A DNA stretch of 64,000 bases, from NCBI RefSeq assembly GCF_009914755.1, contig NC_060947.1. The stretch is one strand, 5' to 3'. Under the pieces are notes generated by a model that was not told the origin of the DNA, ran no database searches, and worked only from the letters and a program-made list of their open reading frames with translations. Shown in pieces: positions 25,804-32,334 of the stretch. The position numbers were made by a program, and so were the translations under genes. Origin of the DNA: the human T2T-CHM13v2.0 reference genome, Homo sapiens. The stretch's first letter is position 1. The number at the start of each line of letters is the position of its first letter.

Positions 25804-26551
25804 TATATACGTAAAATAGAATTGTATTCAAATGTTAAAAATAAGGAAATCCTTTTATTTGTGACAACATAGATTAATCTGAAGGACATTATGCTAAGAG
25901 AAGTATGCCAGGCACAGAAAGACAAATTTTGCATAATCTCACTTATATGTGGAATCTAAAAATGTTGAACTCATGCAAGCAGAGAGTAGAATGGTGGTTG
26001 CTAGGAGATGGAGGTGTGGGAGAAATTGGGAGATGTTGCTTAAAGGTTAAAGTTTCAGTTATGCAGGATGAATCAGTTCTGGAAGTCTAATGTACAGCAT
26101 GATGAGTATAATTATACTGATTGTATACTTGAAATTTGCTAAGAGAGTAGATTTTAAATGTTCTCATCATACAAAAAAATGGTAACTGTGAGGTTATGGA
26201 TGTGTCGATTAGCTTAATCATAGTAATAATTTCACAATGTGTATTAATCACATTGTGGACATTAAACAGATATAATATTTATTTGTCAATAAAGTTGGGT
26301 GGAAAAAGATTGAGATTGAGAACACAAACAGAAAGATACCCACTTGTGTAAGTATAGGGTTGAATGTCAGTCAAAAGCAAGAAATTTTCACTGGGAAAGG
26401 TTATGGTTCAGTGTGAAATACCAAGCATAATAACTATAGTAAAAAGATGAAGGTTCAGTGTGAGACATTAGCATGAAGATGGCCCCTGGAATAAGGTGCT
26501 CTCAATATGAGAAACAATTCCGAAGATGACTGCTGAAATAAGGTTAGGTTC

Positions 26552-27092
26552 TGTTTAAAAGAAAGACTAGCTGGGCACAGTGGTGTACGTCATAATCCCA
26601 GCTACTCAGAATGTTGAGGAGGGAGGATAGCTTTAGCCCAGGAATTCAAGACTAGCTTGGCCTAAGTAACATAGAGAGACCCTGTCTCAAAAAACAAACA
26701 AAAAAAAAAACCACACAAATTAAACAGAGTTTAATTGAGCAAAGACTGATTTACAAATTGGGCAGCCCTCAGAACCTGAAGACATTCAGAGAGCTCTGCT
26801 TTGCAAAGTGGACAGGCAGTATTTATGGACAGAAAATGGAAGTGAGAAAAAAAAAGAAGAAAAGAACATGGAAATGAGGGACAGAAATAGCTTGATTGGT
26901 TACAGCTTGGCATTTGCCTCATTTGGGCATGATCAATTGGCAGCCTGTGACTGGCTGAAGCTTGACTGTTGCAATTTTCTGAGACTCAGCTAGATGTTAC
27001 CAAAAAATATATACTCCTAAATAAGGCTTTCAGTTTCTTTACAGACTTAAGGTAGGGAGACATCCTCAGGCCAAACTTAATTTAAATTAACA
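26552..27092 (-). mobile_element. ERV1 LTR (MER51/MER93-like) carrying an Alu monomer (FLAM) at ~26569-26710
   Basis: aaattaaacagagtttaattgagcaaag...gattggttacagcttggcatttgcc...ggccaaacttaatttaaattaaca; subfamily uncertain. Confidence 0.6.
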
Positions 27093-27488
27093 GTTTGGTT
27101 AAATTAAACTAAGTTTAACAACAAAAAATGAACTTTTTTGTTGTTAATTAACAACAAAAAAGATCACTAGATTAATAAATTTTAAGTTCAGTATGACACA
27201 GCCACCATGAACATGACTGCTAGAATAAGATAAAGGTTTAGAGTGTGACAACAAACTAGAAGTTAACTGCAGGAATGGGAGAAAGTTCAGTGTGACATAA
27301 CAACAAAGAAAATAACTGATGCGTTATGAGTAAGGGTTAGAATGAGACAGTAAGCATGAAGATGACTGCTAGAATGAGGTTAATATTCAGCATGAGATAG
27401 CAATCATAACGACTAGATTAAAGCTATTCTTTAGTGTGTGATAAGATCTGGAAGATGAGTGCTGCAATAAAATTGTATTCAGTGTGAA

Positions 27489-27797
27489 GGCTGGGCGCGG
27501 TGGCTAATGCCTGTACTCCCAGCACTTTGGGAGGCCGAGGCCGGTGGATCACTCGAGGCCAAGAGTTTGGGTCCAGCCTGGAAAACATGGTGAAATCCCA
27601 TCTCTCCTAAAAATACAAAAATTAGCTGGGTGTGGTGGTGCATGCCAGTAATCCCAGCTACTCAGGAGGCTGAGGCAGGAGAATCGCTTGAACCCGCGAG
27701 GCAGAGGTTGCAGTGAGCTAAGATCGTGCCACTGCACTCCAGCCTGGGCAACAGAGTGAAACTCCATCTCAAGAAAACAGAGTGAGTCTTGAAAAAA
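27489..27797 (+). mobile_element. AluS inserted in the 50-bp array
   Basis: Full Alu; TSD aaattgtattcagtgtgaa is made of array sequence. Confidence 0.93.
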
Positions 27798-28445
27798 AAT
27801 TGTATTCAGTGTGAACAAACATGCTGATTACTGCTGGAATAAAGGTTCGGAATGAGACAACAAATCTGAACATGACTATCAGAATATGATGAAGGTTCAA
27901 AGTGTGGCAACTAGTATGAAGATGTCTGCTGAGATAAGGTTAAGGTTTAGTATGTGACAATAAGCAAGTAGATGTCTTACCAAAATGGTTAAGCTTCAGT
28001 GTGAGACAACAAGCATGAACATAACTGCTGAAGGAAGGTTAGGAGGAAGGTTTGTCAGCATAAGACAAATAACATGAAAATGATCACTGGAATGAGGTTA
28101 TAATTCACTATGATAAAACAAGCATGAAGATGATCAGTGTGAGCTTATAATTACGAAGAAATCCACTGGAATACAGATAAGGTTTATTGTGAGACATCAA
28201 GCATGAAGCTGACTGACTGCTGCTATTAGACTAATGTTCGGTGTGAGTCAACAAACCTGAGGGTGACCCCTGATACAAGGTAAAGGTCAAGTGTCACACA
28301 TTGTCAGGAACATGATTTCTTGCATAAGATTAAGATTATGTGTGAGACTGCCCCCATGATAATGACCACAGGAATAAGATAAAAGTTCCTTCTGGAAGAG
28401 CAAGCATGATGATGGTTGCTGGAATTAGGTTAAAATTAATTGTGA

Positions 28446-29310: not shown

Positions 29311-29628
29311 GGCCAGGTGTAGTGGCTCATGCCTGTAATCCCAGTGCTTTAGGAGACTGAGGTGGGAGGATTGCTTGAGGCCAGAAGTTTGAACCAGCCT
29401 GGTCAACATAGCAAGATCTCATTTCTAAAAATAAAAATAAAAAATAAAATTAGCCAGTTGTGCCACAGGTGACTTGTGCCTGTGGTCCCTGCTACTCAGG
29501 AGGCTAAGGCGGGAGGATCGCTTGTGCCCAGGAGTTCAGGGCTGCAGTGAGCTGTGATTGTGTCACTGCACTCCAGCCTTGGTGACAGAGTGAGACCCCA
29601 TCTCTAAAAACAAACGAATAAACAAAAA
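29311..29628 (+). mobile_element. AluJ inserted in the 50-bp array
   Basis: AluJ-type ggaggattgcttgagg and gggaggatcgcttgtgcccaggagttc; divergent. Confidence 0.88.
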
Positions 29629-30549
29629 GTGAGTGCTGTAATCAGTTTAAGATCAATGTGAGGACACCTGCATAAAGATAATTGCTGGAATATGGTTAAG
29701 ATTGTGTGCAAAAGTAAATGGAACATTAACATGACTGCTTTAATGAAGTTAAATGTCACTGTGAAAAAACAGGCAGGAAAGTAAAGACCAAAAGTGGTTG
29801 TCTTTACTGTGCTTTACTGTGACACAGCAAGCAAGAAGATGACTGCTTGAATAAGGTTTAATTTGTTTTGTGTGGCAAAGAACATGAAGATGATCACTGG
29901 AATAAGGTTAAGATTTAATGTAAGACAGTAAGGATGATGATGACTACTGGAATAAGGCTAATGTTCAGTATTAGATAATAAGTCAAAGGATGACCTCTGG
30001 AATTAGTTTAAGATTCAGCATGTGACACCTTAATGATGATGACTGCTGGAAAAACTATTCAGCATGAAAAAAACAGGAATGGGCATGACTACTACAAATG
30101 ATTATACTGCAGGGTGAGATAAGAGTGAAGATTAGCACTGGAACAAGATGAAGTTTCATTGTGGGACAGCTAGCATGATGAAGACAACTGGAAAATGTTA
30201 AGGTTCAATATCTTTAACAAAGACAACAAAAAAATGAATATGGGTCATATGCTGGAATATGATTCCAGGTCCATGTGAAATGGCAAGCATGATGATGAAT
30301 ACTGAAATAAGGTAGAGGTTTGGTGTAACATGAGAAGCATGAAGATGACTGCTGGAATAATTTTAAGGTTCCTTGTGAGACTACATGCAAGGAGATGACT
30401 GCTAAAAAATGTAAGGCTCAATATGTGACAAGCATGAAGATAATGACTGTACTAAGGTTATGCTTCAGTGGGAGATAATGATGACCACAGGAATAAGGTA
30501 AAGATTCATTATGAGCCTACAAGGATGAAGATAACCACTGTTATAAGGT

Positions 30550-30977
30550 TGATATGGTTTGGATCTGTGTCCCCACCCAAATCTCATGTTGAAATGTAAT
30601 CCCCAATGCTGGAGGTGGGACCTAATGTGAGGTGATTTGATCATGGGGGTGGAGTTCTTATGAATGGTTTAGCACCATTGCCCCTTGGTATTATATAGTG
30701 AATGAGTTATCATGAGATATGGTTGTTTGAAAGTGTATAGCATCTCCCCTCGCTCTCTCTTGCTTCTTCTCCAGCCATGTAAGATGTGTCTTCTTCCCCT
30801 TTGCCTTCCACTATGATTGTAAGCTTCCTGAGGCCTCCCCAGAAGCAGAAGCCAAGCAGATGCCAGCATCATGCTTCCTATACAGCCTGCAGAACCGTGA
30901 GCCAATTAAACCTCTTTTCTTTATAAATAACCAGTCTCAGATATTTATTTATAGCAGTGTGAGGACAGAGTAATACA
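30550..30977 (+). mobile_element. MST solo LTR inserted in the 50-bp array
   Basis: tgatatggtttgg...taataca; perfect 5-bp TSD aaggt at 30545-30549 and 30978-30982. Confidence 0.9.
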
Positions 30978-32334
30978 AAGGTTGAGGTCATTAAGAGACC
31001 ACAGGCATGAAAATGAAAAATGACTACTATAATAGGCATGAAAGTGAACATTAGAATAAAGGTGAAGTTAGGTATGACACAACAAACATGAAGATGACCA
31101 CTGGAAAAGTTAACATCACATGTGAGACTTCGAGTGTAATGATGACTGCTGAAACAATGTCAATGTTCAAAGTATGAGGCAAAAAGTATAAGGATGATTC
31201 TGAAATAAGCTAAGGTAAATGATCAACAAGCATTATGATGAATTCTGGTAAAGATTAAGGTCCTTTGTGACACAAAAACCATGAGGATGACAGCTGGAAT
31301 ATGTTAAGGTTCAATGTGCAGCAGAGAGCTAGAAGGACACTACTGGAATAATGTTACAGTTCAGTGTGAGACTGCCAGCAAGAAGATGACAGCTGGGATA
31401 AGGATAAAGGTAAGACCTGAACAATAAGGATGAAGGTTACTACTAAAATAAGGGTAGTATTCAGTGTGAGACAATAAGCAGGAAGGTGACCACTGGAATA
31501 AGGATAGCATTTGTTTTGAGAAAGGAGGCACGAAGATGACCTCTGGAATAAGGCAAAGTTTCAGTATGAGAAAAGGAGTACAAAAATGATGGATGGAATA
31601 AGGCTATAGTTCAATGAAACTATAATAAAAATGAAGGTGACTGCTGGAATATATTTATGGTTCAGTATGAGACAAAATACATAAAGATGATTGCAGAAAT
31701 AATGCTAAGTTTCCCTTTGAGACATCAGCCATGAAGTGGAATCATGGGATAAGGTTAAGTTTCAGTGTATGAAAATTAGCATGAAAATGATTGCTTGAGT
31801 AATGTTCAGGCTCGATGTGAGACAAGCATGATAATGACTACTGGGATACATTTCTAATTCACTGTGAGAGAGCAAGAATGAAGATGACCACTTTAATAAG
31901 GTTATGTTTCACAGTGAGGAAATAAGCATGAAAATTACCACTAGGAAAATAAAAAATAAAAAAAAGAAAATTACCACTAGGATTAGGTAAAAGTTCAATT
32001 TATGACAACGTGCATGCAGATGACCACTGGAATAAGGTTATCCTTCTGTGTGAGAAAACCACCATGGAATGACACTGGAATGTGTCTATTTTTTTAGTGG
32101 GAGACAAAGAACAGGAATGTGAATACTGGAATAAGGAAAGAGTTTAGTGTGAGAGTAGCATGAAGCTGACCGCTATAATAATGTTAAGGTTCAGTTGAGA
32201 CAGCAAGCATGAAGAATAATACTGGAATGTGCATATGCTTCATTGTGACACAACAATAGGAAAACATCCAACCAAATAAAGGTAAGGTTCAGTGTGCGAC
32301 AACAACTATGATGATGAATGCTAGAATAATTAAT

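What the first reader, a model, noticed from the sequence alone, without database searches (positions are those of the whole stretch)
26330..32330. Ancient ~6-kb degenerate tandem array of a 50-bp unit
Seen: about 4 kb of array sequence (roughly 80 units by length) with approximate consensus AAGGTTAAGGTTCAGTGTGAGACAACAAGCATGAAGATGACTGCTGGAAT. Spacing is often exactly 50 nt despite heavy substitution. It is purine-rich on +, and the unit is not a multiple of 3, so it is non-coding. An ERV1 LTR with a FLAM, an AluJ, two AluS and an MST LTR all inserted into it, several with TSDs made of array sequence, so it predates them. I do not recognise it as a named satellite. Inference: a fossil minisatellite, or a multivalent protein/RNA-binding platform like other X-linked repeat loci.
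Basis: partly seen in the sequence, partly recalled or inferred. Interest (0 to 1): 0.72.

Follow-up and report, generated by a model that had tools for sequence, protein, structure and literature searches.

The report
Fossil 50-bp minisatellite on human X
About 80 worn head-to-tail copies of a 50-base unit sit at one spot on the human X chromosome, broken up by five later mobile-element insertions; it is likely a dead minisatellite that probably froze before placental mammals diversified and has likely decayed without function since.

Summary
The array is real. It has six blocks (4.1 kb, about 80 units) between window 26300 and 32329. Units are 76% identical to a 50-bp consensus and 62% to each other. 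It is interrupted by an LTR holding a FLAM, three Alus and an MST-type LTR; three of these have clear target-site duplications made of array sequence.

Six genome-wide pattern searches and two DNA searches found no second array. One possible lone monomer on contig C6 is borderline.

The array looks like neutral decay from a nearly uniform ancestor:
- Units share no excess of derived variants.
- The one ancestral CpG has decayed almost fully (2 of 78 remain).
- No block of positions is conserved.
- There is no Rfam match, RNA structure or annotated transcript.

Non-CpG divergence (23%) is about twice that of the neighbouring Tigger1 and L1 copies and close to local MIRs, so it probably predates the placental radiation. 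Its low transition/transversion ratio (0.86) matches nearby MIRs (0.87, small sample).

I did not find it in the catalogues I could read, but Dfam, mammalian orthologues and RNA/ChIP data could not be tested. The 'binding platform' reading has no support. Verdict: a likely uncatalogued fossil of a known kind; low to moderate interest.

The parts
26300..26551 (+). Array block 1 (about 5 units); begins directly after the 3' end of an L1M element
26552..27120 (.). LTR-like insertion (ERV1-type, name recalled) with a nested FLAM at about 26570-26710; no clean TSD, about 10 bp of the interrupted unit missing
27150..27487 (+). Array block 2 (about 7 units)
27489..27795 (+). Alu with a 20-bp TSD made of array sequence
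27788..28445 (+). Array block 3 (about 13 units; starts inside the duplicated target site)
28447..28744 (+). Alu with a 14-bp TSD (2 mismatches) of array sequence
28745..29308 (+). Array block 4 (about 11 units)
29311..29616 (+). Older Alu (69-74% identical to the window's other near-full-length Alus; J-type by inference); TSD not recovered
29617..30549 (+). Array block 5 (about 18 units)
30550..30977 (+). Solo MST-type (MaLR) LTR, TG...CA, with 5-bp TSD AAGGT
30978..32329 (+). Array block 6 (about 27 units); abuts the 3' half of a MIR at 32334-32449

Best explanation
This is a single array of about 80 decayed 50-bp units, likely a dead minisatellite that probably expanded from one monomer before the placental radiation and has likely decayed neutrally since. 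Shown: the tandem period, the star-like divergence, the CpG decay, the later insertions, and no second array in the searches run. Inferred: a 50-bp seed, itself holding short internal duplications, was amplified by unequal crossing-over, slippage or conversion into a near-uniform array. Turnover then stopped while the units were still less than about 10% apart. Each unit has since mutated independently, and LTRs and Alus inserted as they would in any unconstrained A-rich DNA. It most likely does nothing now.
For: Pairwise identity is flat with distance along the array (0.617-0.631). Shared derived bases between adjacent units average 1.12 against 1.17 in permutations (p 0.68), and their variance does not exceed column shuffles (p 0.80). 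The unit junction reads TG 28, CA 22, TA 13, CG 2 of 78, the pattern of a methylated CpG decaying; neutral simulations reproduce it. G and C positions decay faster than A and T (68-71% against 82-85% retained). Per-position heterogeneity (chi2/df 2.4-5.6 at n about 80) is no larger per sequence than in 29 L1 3' copies (1.8-2.6), and residuals show no clustering (p 0.18). Divergence is 23% raw and 0.28 K2P, against 11% for the local Tigger1, 10-14% for the L1 3' end and 26-28% for MIRs. Pattern searches of 28-31 nt: 15 of 16 matches lie in this array. The profile gives no hit better than E 0.46 in 151 kb of L1, MIR and Tigger1 loci. There is no Rfam match to units, and the fold z-score is -1.3.
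Against: No orthologue, RNA, ChIP or population data could be examined. The star test is weak for small pre-freeze divergence (power 0.16-0.24 at 2-4%, 0.88 at 10%). Per-position conservation does vary significantly within base classes (p 1e-3 to 1e-7), and L1-derived trinucleotide context did not explain it (rho -0.02). Transition/transversion is 0.86, against 1.4-1.9 in simulations and 1.3 for 20 MIR copies (p 2e-4); only the 3 local MIRs match it (0.87, 71 substitutions). One linked variant pair (positions 16 and 18, p 2e-5 among 551 tests) may be an ancestral unit variant or an alignment effect. A possible lone monomer lies on C6. The DNA search is seed-limited (8 candidates for a MIR query).
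Confidence: 0.8

Rival explanations
1. The array is a constrained multivalent platform (a DNA-binding array or repeat RNA) acting on ZNF449 or on X chromatin, like DXZ4, FIRRE or the XIST repeats.
For: It survived as a recognisable array for a very long time, it lies 9 kb downstream of ZNF449 on the same strand (hub annotation), and some positions are well kept (T19, T20, T46, A7 at 92-95%). A>G exceeds T>C on the + strand (0.072 against 0.042), which germline transcription could cause.
Against: There is no conserved block. The strand asymmetry is not significant per position (p 0.10). Five insertions and many indels were tolerated, and the CpG was lost. There is no annotated transcript or enhancer over it, no Rfam or fold signal, and 0 matches to a recalled CTCF-like pattern.
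Confidence: 0.08
2. It is the surviving copy of a tandem repeat internal to, or seeded from, an old low-copy transposable element, or a repeat that is already catalogued (for example the T2T entry GAP_chrX_52bp).
For: One monomer-like 52-bp match lies on C6 (25.4 bits; E 7e-8 in 6 kb, roughly 0.04 when scaled to the genome). Two 24-nt matches fall in related dispersed-repeat copies (L074 and L076). GAP_chrX_52bp has 12 copies and 604 bp on CHM13 X and is near-constant across apes (Table S44 of PMC11168930); its sequence and position were not seen.
Against: There is no second array. Short patterns gave 8 outside matches against 3 for the reversed controls, and none of the 7 followed up extended beyond 19 bits; L074 and L076 gave no profile hit. 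No element ends flank the array. GAP_chrX_52bp has a different stated unit length and a seventh of the bases.
Confidence: 0.1
3. The units were diversified at birth by an error-prone, transversion-rich process, so the array is younger than its divergence suggests.
For: ts/tv is 0.85-0.86 in all units and in 29 indel-free units, and isolated mismatches show the same spectrum; the neighbouring Tigger1 and L1 give 1.7-1.8.
Against: The three MIR copies in the same window show the same ratio (0.87; Fisher p 1.0 against the array), which points to an old regional mutation regime. The CpG decay is saturated.
Confidence: 0.04

Closest known systems
Single-locus minisatellite / VNTR arrays (e.g. the >10-kb locus-specific VNTRs with 20-100 bp units in Warburton et al. 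2008, PMC2588610)
   Same: One locus, head-to-tail units of minisatellite size, kilobases long, not coding.
   Different: Units are only 62% alike, AT-rich and interstitial, it is split by old TE insertions, and it is apparently no longer turning over. It is below the 10-kb cut-off of that survey and mostly invisible to TRF.
T2T 'gap' satellites on ape X/Y (Hoyt et al., bioRxiv 10.1101/2021.07.12.451456; Makova et al., PMC11168930)
   Same: Interstitial arrays of 14-430 bp units that older libraries missed.
   Different: No 50-bp unit is listed in Table S23 or in the chrX part of S44. The 48-bp Desdemona has the same count on X and Y, so it is likely pseudoautosomal. Most of these vary in copy number among apes. 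GAP_chrX_52bp was not excluded.
DXZ4 and other X-linked repeat platforms (FIRRE, XIST repeats)
   Same: X-linked tandem repeat.
   Different: DXZ4 is an uninterrupted, homogeneous 3-kb-unit array bound by CTCF and expressed (abstracts of PMC3218863, PMC3491370); this array is 50 bp, degenerate, CpG-depleted and interrupted.
Diverged 89-bp array at 2q37.1 annotated as MER20 fragments (PMC2588610)
   Same: A diverged interstitial array of short units.
   Different: That one maps to a known transposon; no high-copy source was found here.

Membership tests
Minisatellite (single-locus tandem array) | Head-to-tail units of about 10-100 bp | tested here: met
   Period 50, about 80 units
Minisatellite (single-locus tandem array) | Confined to one locus | tested here: met
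   No second array; one borderline monomer; the searches have limited sensitivity
Active VNTR | Near-identical units under ongoing turnover | tested here: not met
   Maximum pairwise identity 83%, mean 62%, no neighbour similarity
Active VNTR | Copy-number polymorphism | not testable with these tools
   Only one human assembly is held
DXZ4/FIRRE-type X-linked platform | Homogeneous, CpG-retaining, uninterrupted units | tested here: not met
   GC 36%, CpG 17 against 124 expected, five insertions
DXZ4/FIRRE-type X-linked platform | CTCF/YY1 binding and array transcription | not testable with these tools
   No ChIP or RNA data; a recalled CTCF-like pattern had 0 matches; no transcript in the hub annotation
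TE-internal tandem repeat | Unit recurs in dispersed copies of the element | tested here: not met
   15 of 16 long-pattern matches are in this array; no significant profile hit in 42 TE-bearing loci; a low-copy family is not excluded
Named Dfam/RepBase satellite | Sequence match to a library consensus | not testable with these tools
   No Dfam library is held; unit sizes in the published T2T tables were read, but their consensus sequences were not seen
Structured ncRNA cluster (snoRNA/miRNA repeats) | Rfam match or stable fold in the units | tested here: not met
   No Rfam hit on array units at E up to 1; z -1.32 for one 300-nt stretch

The most novel reading that the evidence does not exclude
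An uncatalogued pre-placental array retained across mammals under weak constraint as a regulatory or RNA platform downstream of ZNF449. Failing that, it is a natural 80-replicate mutation-accumulation record, with a known ancestor at a single locus, that preserves a transition-poor mutation regime of the early mammalian X.
Probability: 0.1. Interest if true: 0.65.

Novelty: new member of a known kind. Interest (0 to 1): 0.27.

Why it matters
It shows that kilobase-scale minisatellites can freeze and stay readable for more than an estimated 100 million years while standard tools (TRF, the NCBI mask) mostly miss them, so similar fossils may be under-annotated. With about 80 independent descendants of one recoverable 50-mer at one locus, it is a clean local record of ancient mutation bias. 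It would matter more if cross-species data showed constraint.

Tried and rejected
- Split-MIR origin (array inserted into one MIR whose 5' half lies near 19600): none of 7 MIR comparisons scored above shuffles; rejected.
- Unit derived from the adjacent L1 3' end: the profile gives no significant hit there or in 29 other copies (best E 0.46); rejected.
- Units left of the L1 (19500-20300): best score 14.9 bits, below the reversed control's 20.8; none.
- Higher-order repeat or sub-lineages: not detected, with limited power.
- Under-dispersed mismatch counts in 29 clean units: not significant on 72 units (p 0.077).
- Viral origin: 0 exact matches in viral contigs; a weak test.
- Seven outside short-pattern hits: none extends to an array.
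- Desdemona satellite: same count on X and Y; rejected.
- Table S24 coordinate look-up: uninformative, since the only nearby number was in gorilla coordinates.
- Bacterial promoter scan: irrelevant to this genome.
- Paper searches for the locus and for this kind of array listed no description of it; one search returned nothing.
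Full report
OBSERVATION. The sequence at 26300-32329 holds a real 50-bp tandem array. Shared 5-mers peak at lag 50 (113) and lag 100 (72), against a mean of 3.4 at lag 50 and a maximum of 18 at any lag in 200 shuffles, and the signal is confined to 26-33 kb of the window. TRF reports only two short pieces with period 50. A gapped circular profile defines six blocks totalling 4103 bp, 80 unit-equivalents and 74 near-full units, with 3046 of 4013 bases matching the consensus and 25 of 64 spacings exactly 50. 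I kept 95 of the 110 alignment rows; the 15 dropped lie in flanking or inserted elements. A profile built from 18 unit dimers gives 54 matches in the window at E up to 10, of which 53 are in the array and one weak match is at 34335 (E 0.018).

INSERTIONS AND FLANKS. Rfam SRP matches mark a FLAM and three Alus. TSDs of array sequence flank the 27489 Alu (20 bp), the 28447 Alu (14 bp, 2 mismatches) and the MST-type LTR (AAGGT); none was recovered for the 29311 Alu or the LTR at 26552. The left neighbour is the 3' end of an L1M element (7647 candidates genome-wide), itself split by a Tigger1 that holds a full-length MaLR element. The right neighbour is the 3' half of a MIR.

DISTRIBUTION. Two DNA searches of the genome returned only this array (5 of 5 and 10 of 10 matches), but this search is seed-limited. 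Four patterns of 28-31 nt at up to 3 mismatches gave 1, 2, 9 and 4 matches, 15 of 16 in the array, with 0 for the reversed controls. Two shorter patterns gave 6 and 2 outside matches against 2 and 1 for the controls. The C6 match extends to one 52-bp monomer-like stretch without neighbours (25.4 bits; my scaling to the genome gives E about 0.04). The other 7 reach at most 19 bits. There is no significant profile hit in 151 kb of TE-bearing loci and no exact match in viral contigs. A profile search of the whole genome was not available, so a second, equally decayed array with a shifted consensus is not excluded.

HOW IT EVOLVED. Pairwise identity averages 62.3% (maximum 83%) and does not depend on distance. 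Neighbours share no more derived bases than permuted units (p 0.53-0.68), and the variance of sharing equals column-shuffled data (p 0.80). Simulation shows this excludes about 10% pre-freeze divergence (power 0.88) but not 2-4% (power 0.16-0.24). The junction dinucleotide is TG 28, CA 22, TA 13, CG 2 of 78, as expected for one ancestral methylated CpG and reproduced by neutral simulation. Conservation differs among positions (p 1e-3 to 1e-7 within base classes), but by no more per sequence than in 29 L1 copies, and without clustering (p 0.18). Trinucleotide context from the L1 control did not predict it within base class, so the pattern is unexplained but not motif-like.

AGE. Non-CpG divergence is 23% raw and 0.28 by K2P. 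The local Tigger1 is 11.3% from a consensus of 6 other copies, and the local L1 3' end is 10-14% from a consensus of 29 copies (best-hit copies, so biased low). Twenty MIR copies are 27.6% and the 3 in the window 25.7% from a leave-one-out consensus. With recalled ages for these families, the array froze roughly 120-160 million years ago, before the placental radiation. This is inference; orthologues could not be examined.

MUTATION SPECTRUM. ts/tv is 0.86 (413 against 478) and 0.85 in 29 indel-free units, against 1.4-1.9 in 6 simulations, 1.7-1.8 for the local Tigger1 and L1, and 1.3 for all MIRs (p 2e-4). The three MIRs in this window give 0.87 (33 against 38; p 1.0 against the array), so an old regional regime is the simplest reading, on a small sample.

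FUNCTION. The hub annotation has no gene or element over the array. There is no Rfam match to units, no notable fold in one 300-nt stretch (z -1.32), no ORF above 113 aa, CpG 17 against 124 expected, and 0 matches to a recalled CTCF-like pattern. A>G exceeds T>C on the + strand (0.072 against 0.042) but not significantly per position (p 0.10). I therefore favour a dead minisatellite, expanded by unequal exchange or slippage (inferred), frozen, and decaying neutrally (0.8). Rivals are a TE-derived or already catalogued repeat (0.1), a constrained platform (0.08) and error-prone birth (0.04).

LITERATURE. Hoyt et al. (bioRxiv 10.1101/2021.07.12.451456): passages and section 5 read; its tables are images and its supplements are closed, and these may bear on novelty. 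Makova et al. (PMC11168930): passages, Table S23 and the chrX part of Table S44 read; no 50-bp entry. GAP_chrX_52bp (12 copies, 604 bp on CHM13 X) could not be compared, and the main supplement PDF was too large to read. Warburton et al. (PMC2588610): passages including parts of Tables 1-2; no such array among those shown, with a 10-kb cut-off. H9 genome preprint (10.64898/2026.03.26.714432): one passage on haplotype-specific accessibility near ZNF75D, ZNF449 and SMIM10L2A, with no mention of this array. DXZ4 papers: search listing and abstract starts only. Ten searches listed no description of this array; the library omits most subscription papers.

VERDICT. It is likely uncatalogued, but it is a new member of a known kind. 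Interest 0.27.

Noticed in passing
window 27115-27161: At the right end of the LTR insertion there is a small inverted triplication, including a perfect 28-bp palindrome (27134-27161). It looks like a template-switch event and may have erased the TSD.
   Followed up: partly
window 20250-26300: Nested stack of insertions: an L1M 3' part split by Tigger1 (about 21025-25805), itself split by a full-length MaLR element (about 21258-23606) whose two LTRs are 80.7% identical over 357 columns.
   Followed up: partly
L073:3009-3060 (G000:C6:98998408-98998459): A lone 52-bp stretch resembling one array unit (25.4 bits), just upstream of what looks like a short L1 3' fragment; borderline at genome scale.
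   Followed up: yes
window 16011-16289: A two-copy 121-bp tandem duplication with AC tracts in the ZNF449 3' UTR.
   Followed up: no
window 17416-17512, 32334-32449, 36395-36533: The three MIR copies found in the window show a low transition/transversion ratio (0.87) compared with all 20 MIR copies sampled (1.3), hinting at a regional ancient mutation bias.
   Followed up: partly
window 34335-34421: Weak profile match 2 kb right of the array (E 0.018; 25 bits); possibly a stray decayed unit pair or chance.
   Followed up: no
L074 and L076: Two copies of one dispersed repeat (87% identical over 55 bp; LTR-like by recall) match 21 of 24 bases of part of the unit but give no profile hit; probably chance.
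   Followed up: partly
window 39486-39561: A near-perfect two-copy 38-bp tandem duplication.
   Followed up: no
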